Sequence record: JQ966308.1
Strand: one strand, 5' to 3'
Source: Escherichia phage MS2
Length of the DNA stretch: 3,398 bases
A model generated the notes under the pieces. It had not been told where the DNA came from and searched no databases. It worked only from the letters and a program-made list of their open reading frames with translations. The position numbers and the translations under genes were made by a program. This document shows positions 1 through 3,398 of the stretch, in pieces. Each line of letters starts with the position of its first letter. The first letter of the stretch is position 1.

Positions 1-4
1 ACTC

Positions 5-1186
5 ATGCGAGCTTTTAGTGTCCTTGATCAGGAGTCCGAGACCTTCGTCCCTAGCGTCCGCGTTTATGCGGACGGGCAGGTCGAAGATAACTCGTTTTCC
101 CTAAAATACCGCTCGAACTGGACTCCCGGTCGATTTAATTCGACCGGGTCTAGAACGGAACAGTGGCACTATCCGTCCCCTTATTCTAGGGGTGCGCTCA
201 GTGTCACATCGGTAGATCAAGGTGCCTACAAGCGCTCTGGGTCATCGTGGGGTCGCCCGTACGAGGAGAAAGCCGGTTTTGGCTTCTCACTCGACGCACG
301 TTCCTGCTATAGCCTCTTCCCTGTTAGTCAGAATCTGACTTACATCGAAGTGCCGCAGAACGTTGCGAACCGGGCGTCGACCGAAGTCCTGCAGAAGGTC
401 ACTCAAGGAAATTTCAACCTTGGTGTGGCCCTAGCAGAGGCCAGGTCGACAGCCTCACAACTCGCGACGCAAACCATTGCGCTCGTGAAGGCGTACACTG
501 CCGCTCGTCGCGGCAATTGGCGCCAGACGCTCCGCTATCTTGCCCTAAACGAAGATCGGAAGTTCCGATCGAAACACGTGGCAGGCAGGTGGTTGGAGTT
601 GCAGTTCGGCTGGCTACCGCTCATGAGCGATATCCAGGGCGCATATGAGATGCTTACGAAGGTTCACCTTCAAGAGTTTCTTCCTATGAGGGCCGTACGG
701 CAAGTGGGCACTAACATTAAGTTAGATGGCCGTTTGTCGTATCCAGCTGCAAACTACCAGACTACGTGCAACATATCACGACGAATCGTGATATGGTTTT
801 ACATAAACGATGCACGTTTGGCCTGGTTGTCGTCTCTAGGTATCTTGAACCCACTAGGTATAGTGTGGGAAAAGGTGCCTTTCTCATTCGTTGTCGACTG
901 GCTCCTTCCTGTTGGGAACATGCTCGAGGGCCTCACAGCCCCCGTAGGATGCTCCTACATGTCTGGAACAGTTACTGACGTAATAACGGGTGAGTCCATC
1001 ATAAGCGTCGACGCTCCCTATGGGTGGACGGTGGATAGACAGGGCACTGCTAAGGCCCAAGTCTCAGCCATGCATCGAGGGGTGCAATCCGTATGGCCAA
1101 CAACTGGCGTATACGTGAAGTCACCTTTCTCGATGGTCCATACCTTAGACGCGTTGGCATTAATCAGGCAACGGCTCTTAAGATAG
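5..1186 (+). CDS. mat: Maturation (A / assembly) protein of an MS2-like ssRNA phage, 393 aa; pilus-binding attachment protein present at one copy per virion
   Basis: Full-length ORF from ATG at 5-7 to TAG at 1184-1186. The translation (MRAFS...LDARSCYSLFPVSQNLTYIEVPQNVANRAS...IRQRLLR) matches my recollection of the MS2 A protein over nearly its whole length and is the same size (393 aa). It is the first gene, as in all leviviruses. Confidence 0.93.
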   Translation: MRAFSVLDQESETFVPSVRVYADGQVEDNSFSLKYRSNWTPGRFNSTGSRTEQWHYPSPYSRGALSVTSVDQGAYKRSGSSWGRPYEEKAGFGFSLDARSCYSLFPVSQNLTYIEVPQNVANRASTEVLQKVTQGNFNLGVALAEARSTASQLATQTIALVKAYTAARRGNWRQTLRYLALNEDRKFRSKHVAGRWLELQFGWLPLMSDIQGAYEMLTKVHLQEFLPMRAVRQVGTNIKLDGRLSYPAANYQTTCNISRRIVIWFYINDARLAWLSSLGILNPLGIVWEKVPFSFVVDWLLPVGNMLEGLTAPVGCSYMSGTVTDVITGESIISVDAPYGWTVDRQGTAKAQVSAMHRGVQSVWPTTGVYVKSPFSMVHTLDALALIRQRLLR

Positions 1187-1197
1187 AGCCCTCAACC

Positions 1198-1217
1198 GGA
1201 GTTCGAAGCATGGCTTC
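1198..1217 (+). promoter_or_regulatory. Coat gene ribosome-binding region: Shine-Dalgarno GGAG plus a small initiator hairpin presenting the AUG in its loop
   Basis: GGAG at 1198-1201 lies 8 nt upstream of ATG 1210. GAAGC (1205-1209) and GCTTC (1213-1217) are perfectly complementary and flank the ATG, as in the known MS2 coat initiation hairpin. Confidence 0.7.
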
Positions 1218-1602
1218 TAACTTTACTCAGTTCGTTCTCGTCGACAATGGCGGAACTGGCGACGTGACTGTCGCTCCAAGCAACTTCGCTAACGGGGTCG
1301 CTGAATGGATTAGCTCTAACTCACGTTCTCAGGCTTACAAAGTAACCTGTAGCGTTCGTCAGAGCTCTGCGCAGAACCGCAAGTACACCATTAAGGTTGA
1401 GGTACCAAAAGTGGCTACCCAAACCGTCGGTGGTGTACAGCTTCCTGTAGCCGCATGGCGTTCGTACTTGAATATGGAATTAACTATTCCTATTTTCGCA
1501 ACGAACGACGATTGCGCGCTTATTGTTAAGGCGATGCAAGGTCTCCTAAAAGATGGAAACCCGATCCCCTCAGCAATCGCAGCAAACTCCGGAATCTACT
1601 AA
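1210..1602 (+). CDS. cp: Major coat (capsid) protein, 130 aa including the initiator Met; also the translational repressor of the replicase gene
   Basis: ATG at 1210-1212 lies inside the longer tabulated ORF 1093..1602. The translation MASNFTQFVLVDNGGTGDVTVAPSNFANGVAEWISSNSRSQAYKVTCSVRQSS... is the MS2 coat sequence apart from about three substitutions (Q at codon 1438-1440, D at 1507-1509, A at 1516-1518). GGAG at 1198-1201 is a plausible Shine-Dalgarno. The ORF ends with tandem stops TAA TAG (1600-1605). Confidence 0.96.
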   Translation: MASNFTQFVLVDNGGTGDVTVAPSNFANGVAEWISSNSRSQAYKVTCSVRQSSAQNRKYTIKVEVPKVATQTVGGVQLPVAAWRSYLNMELTIPIFATNDDCALIVKAMQGLLKDGNPIPSAIAANSGIY

Positions 1603-1780
1603 TAGATTCCGTCCATTCCAACATGAGGATTACCCATGTCGAAGACAACAAAGAAGTTCAACTCTTTATGTATTGATCTTCCTCGCGATCTTTCTCTCGA
1701 AATTTACCAATCAATTGCTTCTGTCGCTACTGGAAGCGGTGATCCGCACAGTAGAGACTTTACAGCAATTGCTTACCTAA
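1553..1780 (+). CDS. lys: Lysis protein L, 75 aa single-gene lysis protein (Sgl) with a basic N-terminal region and a hydrophobic C-terminal membrane domain
   Basis: ORF from ATG 1553 to TAA 1778-1780 in the +1 frame relative to coat and replicase. It overlaps the coat 3' end by 50 nt and the replicase 5' end by 145 nt. The translation METRSPQQSQQTPESTNRFRPFQHEDYPCRRQQRSSTLYVLIFLAIFLSKFTNQLLLSLLEAVIRTVETLQQLLT is nearly identical to my recollection of MS2 L, with the same length and position. Confidence 0.92.
   Translation: METRSPQQSQQTPESTNRFRPFQHEDYPCRRQQRSSTLYVLIFLAIFLSKFTNQLLLSLLEAVIRTVETLQQLLT
1600..1605 (+). terminator. Tandem in-frame translational stop codons (UAA UAG) ending the coat gene
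   Basis: TAA at 1600-1602 is followed immediately by TAG at 1603-1605 in the coat frame, the same arrangement as in MS2. Confidence 0.85.
1621..1639 (+). promoter_or_regulatory. Translational operator (TR) hairpin: coat-protein binding site that represses replicase translation and nucleates packaging
   Basis: ACATGAGGATTACCCATGT folds as stem 1621-1625/1635-1639 plus 1627-1628/1633-1634, with a bulged A at 1626 and a 4-nt loop ATTA at 1629-1632. The replicase ATG (1636-1638) is in the 3' arm and the GAGGA Shine-Dalgarno (1625-1629) in the 5' arm. The sequence is identical to the MS2 operator as I recall it. Confidence 0.93.
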
Positions 1781-3273
1781 GAGATGAGTTGCTTACTAAG
1801 CATCCATCATTGGGCAATGGTAATGACGAGGCGACCCGCCGGGCTCTAGCTATTGCTAAGCTCCGGGAGGCGAATGAGCGATGTGGCCAGATTAATAGAG
1901 AAGGTTTCTTACATGACAAATCCTTGTCATGGGATCCGGATGTTTTACAAACCAGCATCCGTAGCCTTATTGGCAACCTCCTCTCTGGCTATCGTTCGTC
2001 GTTGTTTGGGCAATGCACGTTCTCCAACGGTGCCTCGATGGGGCACAAGTTGCAGGATGCAGCGCCTTACAAGAAGTTCGCTGAACAAGCAACCGTTACC
2101 CCCCGCGCTCTGAGAGCGGCTCTACTGGTCCGAGACCAGTGTGCGCCGTGGATCAGACACGCGGTCCACTACAGCGAGTCATATGAATTTAGGCTCGTCG
2201 TAGGGAACGGAGTGTTCACAGTTCCGAAGAATAATAAAATAGATCGGGCTGCCTGTAAGGAGCCAGATGCGAACATGTACCTTCAGAAAGGGGTTGGTGG
2301 CTTCATACGCCGCCGCCTCCGTTCTATCGGTATCGACCTGAATGATCAAACGATCAATCAACGTCTTGCAAAACTCGGCAGTATCGATGGTTCTTTAGCG
2401 ACGATAGATTTATCGTCTGCTTCTGACTCCATATCGGACCGCCTTGTTTGGGAGTTTCTCCCACCGCAAATGTATGCGTACCTGTCTAAAATTCGTTCGC
2501 CACGAGGAATCGTTGACGGACGTATGATCGACTGGCACCTATTTTCCACTATGGGTAATGGATTTACCTTTGAACTAGAGTCCATGATCTTTTGGGCAAT
2601 AGTTAAGGCAACCATGACTCATTTTGGTAACCTTGGAACAATTGGCATCTATGGGGACGATATCATATGTCCCACAGAGATTGCACCTCGTGTGCTAGAG
2701 GCTCTCAGCTTCTACGGTTTTAAACCGAATCAGTCGAAGACGTTCATCACGGGTCGCTTTCGCGAGTCCTGTGGTGCACATTACTTCGGCGGTGCTGATT
2801 GCAAACCGATTTATATCAAGAAACCCGTTAACAACCTCTTCGCCGTCTGTCTGTTACTTAACAGACTGCGCGGCTGGGGTGTTGTGAACGGTGTGTCAGA
2901 TCCTCGCCTCTTCGAGACTTGGAAATGGCTATCCGAACGTGTTCCCTCGATACTTTTCGGTGGGTCAAACCTTGATGCAGACTATTACGTGGTCAGCCGC
3001 CAGGAAGCCAGGAAGCGTTGCGAGGATCATCCAGTATATGGACGTACCCTTGCTCATTTCCACAGCTCTCCTCATCGGTTGTACCGCGTACCCGCCTCTA
3101 AACGCGAATTTTCTTCGCGCGAAGAGTCCGGTCGCCTCATCACTTGGTACCATAATGGCGGTCAAATTATTGACACCACTACGACCCCAAGGGTTCGCCT
3201 TGTGCGAACATCGGAATGGCTAGCGGTAGTGCCATCCTTCCCTCAGGAAGATGACACACGCGAGCTCTCCTAG
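1636..3273 (+). CDS. rep: RNA-dependent RNA polymerase (replicase beta subunit), 545 aa
   Basis: ORF from ATG 1636 to TAG 3271-3273. The N-terminus MSKTTKKFNSLCIDLPRDLSLEIYQSIASVATGSGDPH... matches the MS2 replicase. RdRp motifs are present: motif A TIDLSSASDSISD (2401-2439), motif B MGNGFTFELES (2551-2583) and motif C YGDD (2650-2661). It has the same length as the MS2 replicase, but the C-terminal roughly 120 aa are noticeably diverged. Confidence 0.96.
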   Translation: MSKTTKKFNSLCIDLPRDLSLEIYQSIASVATGSGDPHSRDFTAIAYLRDELLTKHPSLGNGNDEATRRALAIAKLREANERCGQINREGFLHDKSLSWDPDVLQTSIRSLIGNLLSGYRSSLFGQCTFSNGASMGHKLQDAAPYKKFAEQATVTPRALRAALLVRDQCAPWIRHAVHYSESYEFRLVVGNGVFTVPKNNKIDRAACKEPDANMYLQKGVGGFIRRRLRSIGIDLNDQTINQRLAKLGSIDGSLATIDLSSASDSISDRLVWEFLPPQMYAYLSKIRSPRGIVDGRMIDWHLFSTMGNGFTFELESMIFWAIVKATMTHFGNLGTIGIYGDDIICPTEIAPRVLEALSFYGFKPNQSKTFITGRFRESCGAHYFGGADCKPIYIKKPVNNLFAVCLLLNRLRGWGVVNGVSDPRLFETWKWLSERVPSILFGGSNLDADYYVVSRQEARKRCEDHPVYGRTLAHFHSSPHRLYRVPASKREFSSREESGRLITWYHNGGQIIDTTTTPRVRLVRTSEWLAVVPSFPQEDDTRELS

Positions 3274-3398
3274 TCAGCACGGCTAGGGACCCCCGTAATC
3301 GGGGTGGGTGCCGCGAAAGCGGCTATTCATCGTAACAACGATGGATAGGAGTAACCTCCTAATTCGGTGACTAACTTTGCTTGGCTAGTCACCACCCA
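3274..3398 (+). other. 3' untranslated region of the phage genome, 125 nt, with a series of short hairpins and the levivirus 3' terminus ...ACCACCCA
   Basis: Perfect small stem-loops are visible: 3291-3295/3300-3304 (CCCCG/CGGGG, loop TAAT), 3310-3314/3319-3323 (GCCGC/GCGGC, GAAA tetraloop), 3328-3332/3339-3343 (CATCG/CGATG), and 3347-3351/3356-3360 (AGGAG/CTCCT, loop TAAC). The window ends in CCCA. Confidence 0.85.
3366..3398 (+). promoter_or_regulatory. 3'-terminal hairpin plus single-stranded ACCCA tail; likely the replicase initiation site for minus-strand synthesis
   Basis: GGTGACTA (3366-3373) pairs perfectly with TAGTCACC (3386-3393), an 8-bp stem with a 12-nt loop, followed by unpaired ACCCA (3394-3398). 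Levivirus genomes end in CCCA with a terminal hairpin immediately upstream. Confidence 0.75.

What the first reader, a model, noticed from the sequence alone, without database searches (positions are those of the whole stretch)
3274..3398. 3' UTR appears shorter than MS2 and is built from a chain of short perfect hairpins
The 3' UTR is 125 nt, whereas I recall about 170 nt for MS2. This suggests a deletion or a different 3' domain architecture, while the terminal hairpin and the ACCACCCA end are retained. Four small hairpins plus the terminal 8-bp hairpin are directly visible, including one with a GAAA tetraloop at 3315-3318. This region holds replicase recognition elements and, in MS2, part of the long-range structure regulating maturation-gene expression and minus-strand initiation.
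Basis: partly seen in the sequence, partly recalled or inferred. Interest (0 to 1): 0.4.

Follow-up and report, generated by a model that had tools for sequence, protein, structure and literature searches.

The report
Short 3' end of JS-type MS2-like phage
The 125-base tail of this RNA phage genome really is about 46 bases shorter than MS2's because it lacks three of MS2's seven tail hairpins, but this was published in 2012 for the same "JS" strains (DL52 and DL54), and it is the normal tail of a separate phage lineage, not a fresh deletion.

Summary
Observation confirmed, novelty refuted. The window is almost certainly phage DL54 (JQ966308), a published "nearly full-length" 3398-nt record lacking the 5' UTR. 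Its 3' UTR is 125 nt against 171 nt in MS2. DL52 (JQ966307) has the same length with two base differences. Friedman et al. 2012 already reported the 3' UTR deletions and the retained ACCACCCA end.

What I add is a hairpin-level map.
- Kept: the stop-codon hairpin R1, a CCCCG hairpin, the closing helix ld IX (UGGGU/ACCCA), a CCGC-GAAA-GCGG hairpin identical to fr/DL16, a lengthened third hairpin (10 bp, AACA loop), U2 and U1.
- Missing relative to genogroup I: the first GAAA hairpin, the UUCG hairpin and the A-rich V2 hairpin.
- The U1 loop keeps UGCUU. Its complement CAAGCAA lies about 1.29 kb upstream and is conserved in all eight genomes compared.

The same 3' UTR occurs in metagenome contigs (L008, L004, L009) whose 5' 2.2 kb is only about 66-68% identical to MS2. 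The domain is therefore native to a sister lineage and came with the 3' third of the replicase gene.

In passing: the 5' 1784 nt are 100% identical to DL52 and 99.9% to DL16, which raises a laboratory-chimera question.

The parts
3266..3289 (+). R1, the hairpin holding the replicase stop codon (TAG 3271-3273 in the 5' arm). Pairs are 3266-3267 with 3288-3289 and 3269-3275 with 3281-3287.
   Evidence: MFE fold. Four of its pairs change on both sides across JS, genogroup I and genogroup II (helix 1).
3291..3304 (+). Hairpin CCCCG-UAAU-CGGGG, lying between R1 and ld IX.
   Evidence: Present in MS2, fr, GA and KU1. The only variant within the JS type (L009, UAAC) is in the loop.
3305..3309 (+). 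5' strand of ld IX (UGGGU), pairing with the 3' terminal ACCCA.
   Evidence: MFE folds. Invariant in all 8 sequences that reach the 3' end (helix 3). ld IX is described for all Leviviridae in PMC3561173.
3310..3323 (+). Hairpin H2: G + CCGC-GAAA-GCGG + C, a GNRA tetraloop at 3315-3318.
   Evidence: The sequence CCGCGAAAGCGG is identical to the second hairpin of fr, DL16 and DL1.
3324..3347 (+). Hairpin H3: 10 bp with one G.U, loop AACA. It is a lengthened homologue of the third hairpin of fr/MS2 (GCUCAUCA-GAAA-UGGUGGGU in fr).
   Evidence: Identical in DL52, L004 and L008.
3348..3359 (+). U2: GGAG-UAAC-CUCC. It aligns with MS2 GGGA-UUC-UCCC.
   Evidence: The C/U variant at 3355 lies in the loop.
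3360..3365 (+). Unpaired linker UAAUUC between U2 and U1.
   Evidence: The C/U variant at 3365 is unpaired.
3366..3393 (+). U1, the 3' terminal hairpin. It has 8 bp (GGUGACUA/UAGUCACC, the same stem sequence as GA and KU1), an A3374 x C3385 mismatch, 2 further bp, and a loop UUGCUU that contains the family-wide UGCUU.
   Evidence: Two pairs covary (helix 9). The UGCUU loop is described in PMC3561173. U1 binds the maturation protein in MS2 and Q-beta (PMC8880383).
3394..3398 (+). 3' strand of ld IX, the genome terminus ACCCA.
2086..2092 (+). CAAGCAA in the replicase gene. It is the candidate long-range pseudoknot partner of the U1 loop UUGCUUG (3377-3383), about 1.29 kb upstream.
   Evidence: This is the only AAGCA alignment column shared by all 8 genomes compared, GA included. 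It lies in a stretch that is almost invariant at nucleotide level. The Q-beta precedent is described in PMC3561173.
2221..2256 (+). Crossover block. Upstream the window is MS2-like. Downstream, through the 3' UTR, it belongs to the JS lineage.

Best explanation
Positions 3274-3398 are the complete 3'-terminal domain of a "JS-type" F-specific levivirus. The window is very probably strain DL54, JQ966308.

Architecture. It is a reduced version of the genogroup I 3' domain. The helix ld IX (UGGGU 3305-3309 with ACCCA 3394-3398) closes a multibranch loop of four hairpins: H2 with a GAAA loop, a lengthened H3, U2 and U1. MS2, fr and DL16 have seven hairpins there. Missing are the first GAAA hairpin, the UUCG hairpin and the V2 hairpin with its large A-rich loop.

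Length arithmetic against DL16: 171 - 19 - 36 + 3 (H3) + 2 (U1 loop) + 4 (earlier stop codon) = 125 nt.

Origin. The domain was not produced by deletion in an MS2 genome. It is the native 3' end of a sister lineage of genogroup I, and it is carried here together with the 3' 1.14 kb of that lineage's replicase gene.

How it probably works (inferred by homology, not shown here):
- ld IX sequesters the terminal CCCA and so controls access of the replicase for minus-strand initiation.
- U1 is the binding site of the maturation protein.
- The U1 loop UUGCUUG can pair with CAAGCAA at 2086-2092, as in the replication-essential Q-beta pseudoknot.
- H2, H3 and U2 are structural spacers or coat-protein contacts, and their number is evolutionarily free.
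For: Identity of the record.
- The replicase is 100% identical to an NCBI protein whose longest contig is 3398 nt.
- DL52 is 96.8% identical over the whole window.
- Table 2 of PMC3499819 lists DL54 as 3398 nt and nearly full-length. The text reports 3' UTR deletions and the retained ACCACCCA.

Architecture.
- Folds of the window, DL52, L008, MS2, DL16, J20, DL1, fr, GA and KU1.
- The alignment shows a 19-nt gap and a roughly 36-nt gap.
- On that alignment 88% of cells are paired, against 34-48% for slid controls. Fourteen pairs change on both sides, against 8 or fewer in the controls.
- All 3 substitutions and the 1 indel seen within the JS type fall in loops or the linker.

Native lineage.
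- L008 (3548 nt), L004 and L009 carry the same 3' UTR. They are 90-97% identical to the window from about 2256 onward, but only 40-76% identical upstream.
- The best match of L008's 5' 2300 nt in the phage collection is MS2 at 66-68%.
- L008 versus MS2, amino-acid identity: replicase 65%, maturation protein 56%, coat 74%. It is an outgroup to MS2 plus fr and closer than GA.

Pseudoknot partner.

Functional roles from the literature: PMC3561173 and PMC8880383.
Against: - There is no covariation for ld IX (it is invariant) and none within the JS type, whose 3' UTRs are 98% identical or more. The JS-specific hairpin H3 therefore rests on thermodynamics and on homology to fr/MS2 H3.
- The last 12 nt (AGUCACCACCCA) are supported only by DL52 and DL54, which come from one laboratory and might be primer-influenced. 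L008 stops at window position 3386.
- The functional roles are all transferred from MS2 and Q-beta. Nothing was measured for this sequence.
- The conservation of CAAGCAA could be partly a protein-coding constraint (the Q-A codons in the KKFAEQAT motif).
Confidence: 0.88

Rival explanations
1. A recent internal deletion or deletions in an otherwise MS2-type 3' UTR.
For: Hairpin H2 is identical to fr/DL16, and the flanks (R1 context, CCCCG hairpin, ld IX, U1 loop) are recognisably homologous.
Against: - The remaining UTR sequence and the adjacent 1.1 kb of coding sequence are only 46-79% identical to MS2.
- The same UTR sits on genomes that are non-MS2 throughout.
- The U1 stem is GA-like, and H3 and U2 differ in sequence.
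- Hairpin loss probably did occur, but deep in the JS lineage and not in an MS2 background.
Confidence: 0.04
2. An RT-PCR, cloning or assembly artefact: the polymerase skipped stable hairpins, so the real UTR is longer.
For: The deleted segments are very stable GC-rich hairpins, and DL52 and DL54 were sequenced by primer walking and cloning in one laboratory.
Against: Two independent metagenome assemblies from different samples (L004 from Logan SRR7550489, L008 from ENA ERZ781410) show the identical architecture across both deletion sites. L009 agrees as far as it extends.
Confidence: 0.02
3. The 3' UTR is genuine, but the genome it sits on is partly a laboratory chimera. On this reading the MS2-like 5' 1.8-2.2 kb of DL54 and DL52 comes from a co-handled DL16-like template. 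The real phage would then be a pure JS-lineage virus like L008, and the pairing of an MS2-type maturation protein with this 3' domain would never occur in nature.
For: - Window 1-1784 has 0 mismatches to DL52 and 2 to DL16. Both isolates share those same 2 differences from DL16. The next closest natural strain is 94.5% identical.
- The JS-type parts of the same two isolates differ by about 7.5%. That is incompatible with uniform divergence from one ancestral recombinant.
- The crossover lies in a 35-nt universally conserved block, which would be an ideal primer or template-switch site.
- Each chimeric replicase cluster has a single member, from NCBI only. The non-chimeric form is seen in 4 metagenome samples.
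Against: - Window 1785-2255 is MS2-like but matches no deposited strain better than 96%. At least that junction flank is therefore not DL16.
- Homologous recombination would also favour a conserved block.
- Four recombination programs supported recombination in the original paper, although they cannot tell natural from artificial chimeras.
- I could not inspect raw reads.
Confidence: 0.4

Closest known systems
3' UTR of phage DL52 (JQ966307), JS subgroup of Levivirus genogroup I (Friedman et al. 2012, PMC3499819)
   Same: It has the same length (125 nt), the same hairpins and the same ACCACCCA end. Identity is 123 of 125.
   Different: There are two substitutions, 3355 C/U in the U2 loop and 3365 C/U in the linker. 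Both are unpaired.
Genogroup I 3' terminal domain (MS2, DL16, J20, DL1, fr), the seven-hairpin domain described in PMC3561173
   Same: Shared features are R1 around the stop codon, the CCCCG hairpin, ld IX, a CCGC-GAAA-GCGG hairpin (identical in fr and DL16), an H3 homologue, U2, U1 with the UGCUU loop, the ACCACCCA end, and the upstream CAAGCAA.
   Different: - It lacks the first GAAA hairpin (GUGCUC-GAAA-GAGCAC), the UUCG hairpin and the A-rich V2 hairpin.
- H3 is longer (10 bp, AACA loop).
- The U1 stem is GGUGACUA rather than GGUAACUAGC, and its loop is 2 nt longer.
- The stop codon lies in the R1 stem rather than in its loop.
- The UTR is 125 nt against 171-176 nt.
Genogroup II 3' terminal domain (GA, KU1)
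   Same: The size is similar (119 nt in GA). There are four hairpins inside ld IX. The U1 stem sequence is identical (GGUGACUA...UAGUCACC).
   Different: GA and KU1 keep an H1-like hairpin, and GA has a V-like hairpin with the loop CAAAA. They lack the CCGC-GAAA-GCGG hairpin and the long H3. Apart from ld IX and U1, the interior is not alignable.
3' domains of PRR1, C-1, Hgal1 and M (PMC3561173)
   Same: There is no hairpin V. A short unpaired U/A-rich stretch joins U2 to U1: UAAUUC here, UUAAU in C-1 and UAUA in Hgal1.
   Different: Those phages have only two hairpins inside ld IX and are distant in sequence. The resemblance is architectural only and comes from the paper's description, not from a test here.

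Membership tests
Leviviridae/Fiersviridae 3'-terminal domain | The genome ends in ...CCCA (ACCACCCA in Emesvirus genogroups I and II). | tested here: met
   Window 3391-3398 is ACCACCCA, aligned with the ends of MS2, fr, GA, KU1 and DL52.
Leviviridae/Fiersviridae 3'-terminal domain | The long-distance helix ld IX pairs the very 3' terminus with an upstream stretch and closes the domain. | tested here: met
   UGGGU 3305-3309 pairs with ACCCA 3394-3398 in the MFE and centroid structures. It is 100% paired and invariant in 8 sequences, so there is no covariation evidence.
Leviviridae/Fiersviridae 3'-terminal domain | A terminal hairpin U1 with a conserved UGCUU loop. | tested here: met
   U1 spans 3366-3393 and its loop contains UGCUU at 3378-3382. 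Two stem pairs covary.
Leviviridae/Fiersviridae 3'-terminal domain | A complement of the U1 loop lies about 1.2 kb upstream in the replicase gene (pseudoknot proven only for Q-beta). | tested here: met
   CAAGCAA at 2086-2092 is the only AAGCA column shared by all 8 genomes. Pairing itself was not tested.
Leviviridae/Fiersviridae 3'-terminal domain | A hairpin V/V2 with a large adenine-rich loop. It is usual but not universal, and is absent in PRR1, C-1, Hgal1 and M. | tested here: not met
   No such hairpin appears in the window fold. The MS2/fr V2 segment falls in the 36-nt gap.
Genogroup I (MS2/fr-type) seven-hairpin 3' domain | Seven hairpins inside ld IX (H1 GAAA, H2 GAAA, H3 GAAA, UUCG, V2, U2, U1) and a UTR of about 171-176 nt. 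| tested here: not met
   There are four hairpins inside ld IX and the UTR is 125 nt.
JS subgroup (DL52/DL54) of Friedman et al. 2012 | A replicase 3' part and 3' UTR of JS type, with a 125-nt UTR and about 53-55 nt of deletions relative to MS2. | tested here: met
   Identity to DL52 is 96.8% overall and 123 of 125 in the UTR. The replicase is 100% identical to an NCBI record whose longest contig is 3398 nt (paper text).
Rfam families | A match of the 3' UTR to any curated RNA family. | tested here: not met
   At E <= 1 the only hit in the window is the MS2 operator hairpin, RF02359, at 1604-1639.

The most novel reading that the evidence does not exclude
The 125-nt domain is the native 3' end of an unnamed F-specific levivirus lineage that is sister to genogroup I. 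Against MS2, its amino-acid identities are replicase 65%, maturation protein 56% and coat 74%. Its complete, non-recombinant genome (L008, about 3560 nt) exists only in metagenome assemblies.

On this reading, the published "natural recombinants" DL52 and DL54 owe their MS2-like 5' 1.8-2.2 kb to a DL16-like laboratory template rather than to recombination in the environment.

If instead the recombinants are real and infectious, they show that an MS2-type maturation protein and replicase N-terminus work with a GA-like U1 and a V2-less 3' domain.
Probability: 0.4. Interest if true: 0.45.

Novelty: already known. Interest (0 to 1): 0.2.

Why it matters
As a finding about the 3' UTR it matters little. 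The shortened UTR of JS strains was published in 2012, and the number of hairpins in this domain is known to vary from three to seven across ssRNA phages.

Two modest points have value.

1. The hairpin map shows which elements every Emesvirus-like phage keeps: R1, the CCCCG hairpin, ld IX, U1 with its UGCUU loop, and the upstream CAAGCAA. It also shows which are dispensable: H1, the UUCG hairpin and V2. That is useful for designing minimal MS2-type replicons or packaging adapters.

2. Metagenome contigs now supply the missing parent of the JS "recombinants". They also expose a pattern that calls for re-examining what has been cited as the first case of natural recombination in environmental Leviviridae. 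The pattern is 0 mismatches over 1784 nt next to 7.5% divergence downstream.

Tried and rejected
- IMG/VR scans found nothing. I tried the replicase C-terminus, a pattern specific to the JS junction and the apex of H3.
BLAST against L008, MS2 and GA, plus reading its context, showed it to be an unrelated chance match.
- A protein search with only the C-terminal 141 aa returned nothing. The full-length replicase was needed.
- The exact look-up of the window's own replicase found no contig.
- Rfam has no family for this domain.
- I fetched more distant relatives, L016 (55% replicase identity) and L017, to polarise hairpin gains and losses. Their contigs stop before U1, so they were not used.
- Could H3 (loop AACA) be an MS2-operator-like coat-protein site? 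The loop fits A-N-Y-A, but the stem has no bulged purine at the -10 position. I therefore do not claim it.
- A local fold around CAAGCAA was not informative about whether that site is exposed.

Full report
**What the window is**

The window encodes a complete MS2-type gene set:
- maturation protein, 5-1186
- coat protein, 1210-1602
- lysis protein, 1553-1780
- replicase, 1636-3273

The 5' UTR is missing, because the maturation ATG is at position 5. The 3' UTR is 125 nt and ends ACCACCCA. Rfam recognises only the coat-protein operator hairpin at 1604-1639.

In the phage collection the only full-length match is JQ966307, isolate DL52 (3525 nt), at 96.8% identity. All other MS2-like genomes align by megablast only to window 1-2998. 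The window's replicase is 100% identical to an NCBI protein whose longest contig is 3398 nt.

Friedman et al. 2012 (PMC3499819) describe two "JS" strains, DL52 (JQ966307, 3525 nt) and DL54 (JQ966308, 3398 nt, "nearly full-length"). The window is therefore almost certainly DL54.

- About 53 nt are deleted, beginning about 40 nt after the stop codon.
- The ACCACCCA signature is kept.

It gives no secondary-structure analysis.

**Check of the observation**

The length claim holds: 125 nt here against 171 nt in MS2 (NC_001417, replicase 1761-3398 of 3569).

The UTR folds at -54.7 kcal/mol against -36.7 +/- 3.7 for dinucleotide shuffles (z = -4.9, 0 of 200). With the stop-codon hairpin included, z = -6.4. 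MS2's own 3' end gives z = -4.2.

Two corrections apply. The third hairpin (3324-3347) has 10 bp and is not small. The elements do not form a chain: UGGGU 3305-3309 pairs with the terminal ACCCA 3394-3398 and encloses four hairpins. This closing helix is the ld IX described for all Leviviridae (PMC3561173).

**Hairpin-level comparison**

I folded the 3' regions of DL52, L008, MS2, DL16, J20, DL1, fr, GA and KU1 and aligned ten of the sequences.

In DL16, J20, DL1 and fr, the genogroup I domain inside ld IX holds seven hairpins. This matches the "seven hairpins in MS2" of PMC3561173:
- H1, GUGCUC-GAAA-GAGCAC
- H2, CCGC-GAAA-GCGG
- H3, with a GAAA loop
- a UUCG hairpin
- V2, with an A-rich loop
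- U2
- U1

The window compares as follows:
- It keeps H2 with identical sequence.
- It keeps a lengthened H3 (AACA loop), U2 (GGAG-UAAC-CUCC) and U1.
- It lacks H1 plus its linker (a 19-nt gap).
- It lacks the UUCG hairpin and V2 (a 36-nt gap).

It also gains 3 nt in H3 and 2 nt in the U1 loop, and 4 nt of UTR from a stop codon that sits 4 alignment columns earlier. The arithmetic closes: 171 - 19 - 36 + 3 + 2 + 4 = 125.

The U1 stem (GGUGACUA/UAGUCACC) is the genogroup II (GA/KU1) sequence, not the MS2 one.

Counting the window's structure on the ten-sequence alignment gives 88% paired cells, against 34-48% when partners are slid. Fourteen pairs change on both sides, against 8 or fewer in the slid controls. 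The covariation is concentrated in R1, H2/H3 and U1. ld IX never varies.

Within the JS type, variation is minimal and always unpaired:
- 3355 C/U, in the U2 loop
- 3365 C/U, in the linker
- a loop change in the CCCCG hairpin of L009
- a U1 loop one U shorter in L008

**Where the domain comes from**

The full-length replicase search found a cluster, P0003 (83% identity, four members from four metagenome samples). Its proteins are nearly identical to the JS replicase from about residue 207 onward. Their N-terminal 200 residues are divergent from both MS2 and JS.

The contigs are L008 (ENA ERZ781410, 3548 nt), L004 (Logan SRR7550489) and L009 (Logan ERR3201760). They carry the same 3' UTR as far as each extends:
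- L008 reaches window position 3386.
- L004 reaches about position 3366, stopping at the start of U1.
- L009 reaches the ld IX 5' strand.

Sliding identity and mismatch maps show the window is 90-97% identical to these contigs from about 2256 to the end, but only 40-76% identical upstream. The best match of L008's 5' 2300 nt in the phage collection is MS2 at 66-68%.

Amino-acid identities:

| Pair | Replicase | Maturation | Coat |
|---|---|---|---|
| L008 vs MS2 | 65% | 56% | 74% |
| MS2 vs fr | 83% | 78% | 87% |
| MS2 vs GA | 52% | 44% | 61% |

The lineage is thus a sister of genogroup I, and the 125-nt domain is its native 3' end.

With GA as outgroup, H1 and a V-type A-rich hairpin are probably ancestral and were lost in this lineage. 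This is a parsimony inference.

**Likely function (inferred)**

Three roles follow from the literature, not from measurements on this sequence:
- ld IX sequesters the 3' CCCA.
- U1 is the stem-loop bound by the maturation protein in the MS2 and Q-beta virions (PMC8880383).
- In Q-beta, the U1 loop forms a replication-essential pseudoknot with a sequence about 1200 nt upstream (PMC3561173).

I tested the last point at sequence level. Among all AAGCA sites, exactly one alignment column is shared by DL54, DL52, DL16, MS2, fr, L008, L009 and GA. It is window 2087-2091, within CAAGCAA 2086-2092, which is complementary over 7 nt to the U1 loop UUGCUUG 3377-3383.

It lies in a 46-nt stretch that is almost invariant at nucleotide level, even in GA. 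Both partners are the same in the MS2-like and JS lineages, so a recombinant would keep this interaction.

No element replaces V2. The unpaired UAAUUC between U2 and U1 resembles the situation described for PRR1, C-1, Hgal1 and M.

**Side observation on the genome as a whole**

The mismatch maps show a sharply uneven pattern:
- DL54 and DL52 have 0 mismatches over window 1-1784, then 110 mismatches downstream. That is about 5% in 1785-2255 and about 7.5% in the JS part.
- DL52 differs from DL16 (EF108464, from the same laboratory) at only 2 positions over 1-2255. DL54 shares those 2 differences.
- The next closest natural MS2-like strain is 94.5% identical over 1-1784.
- Window 1780-2255 matches nothing better than 96%.
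- In both isolates the MS2-to-JS crossover lies inside a 35-nt block identical in all genomes compared (2221-2256).
- The chimeric replicases are known only from the two GenBank records, whereas the non-chimeric form occurs in four metagenome samples.

Uniform divergence from one ancestral recombinant cannot give 0 of 1784 mismatches next to 7.5%. Either a nearly clonal DL16-like 5' segment was acquired repeatedly, or part of the 5' sequence is a laboratory chimera. I cannot decide between these with the tools available. It does not affect the reality of the 3' UTR, which the metagenome contigs confirm.

**Verdict**

The "different 3' domain architecture" reading is correct. But the feature is already published for these very strains and falls within the known variability of this domain.

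The remaining interest lies in two things: the identification of the non-recombinant parent lineage, and the question it raises about the JS "recombinants".

Noticed in passing
window 1-1784 and 1785-2255: The 5' 1784 nt have 0 mismatches to DL52 and 2 to DL16 (both isolates share those same 2 differences from DL16). The 3' JS-type parts of DL54 and DL52 differ by about 7.5%. Window 1785-2255 is a third, MS2-like piece that matches nothing better than 96%. This mosaic is hard to reconcile with a single natural recombinant ancestor. It suggests either repeated exchange or a laboratory chimera.
   Followed up: partly
L008 1-3548 (ENA ERZ781410 NODE_606); also L004, L009, L010: This is a near-complete genome of an undeposited levivirus lineage: 5' UTR 129 nt, maturation protein 394 aa, coat 129 aa, replicase 544 aa, and a 73-nt coat-replicase spacer with a putative lysis ORF at 1725-1946 starting at the coat stop codon, as in GA. 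It is about 66-68% identical to MS2 in its 5' 2.3 kb. It is the apparent donor lineage of the JS 3' part.
   Followed up: partly
window 2221-2256: A 35-nt block, GTTCCGAAGAATAATAAAATAGATCGGGCTGCCTG (encoding VPKNNKIDRAAC), is identical in DL54, DL52, DL16, MS2 and L008 (L004 differs by one base). It coincides with the crossover point in both JS isolates.
   Followed up: yes
window 2050-2095: A roughly 46-nt stretch of the replicase gene is almost invariant at nucleotide level in MS2, fr, L008 and GA, including synonymous positions. This suggests an RNA-level constraint. It contains CAAGCAA, which is complementary to the U1 loop.
   Followed up: partly
window 1-8: The record starts 4 nt before the maturation gene, so the whole 5' UTR (about 130 nt) is absent. 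The maturation gene starts with ATG here, whereas I recall GUG for MS2. The MS2 start codon was not read with the tools.
   Followed up: no
window 3269-3275: The replicase stop codon lies in the 5' arm of hairpin R1 in the JS type. In MS2 and fr it lies in the R1 loop. Relative to MS2, the replicase has one extra residue near position 467 and one fewer at the C-terminus.
   Followed up: no
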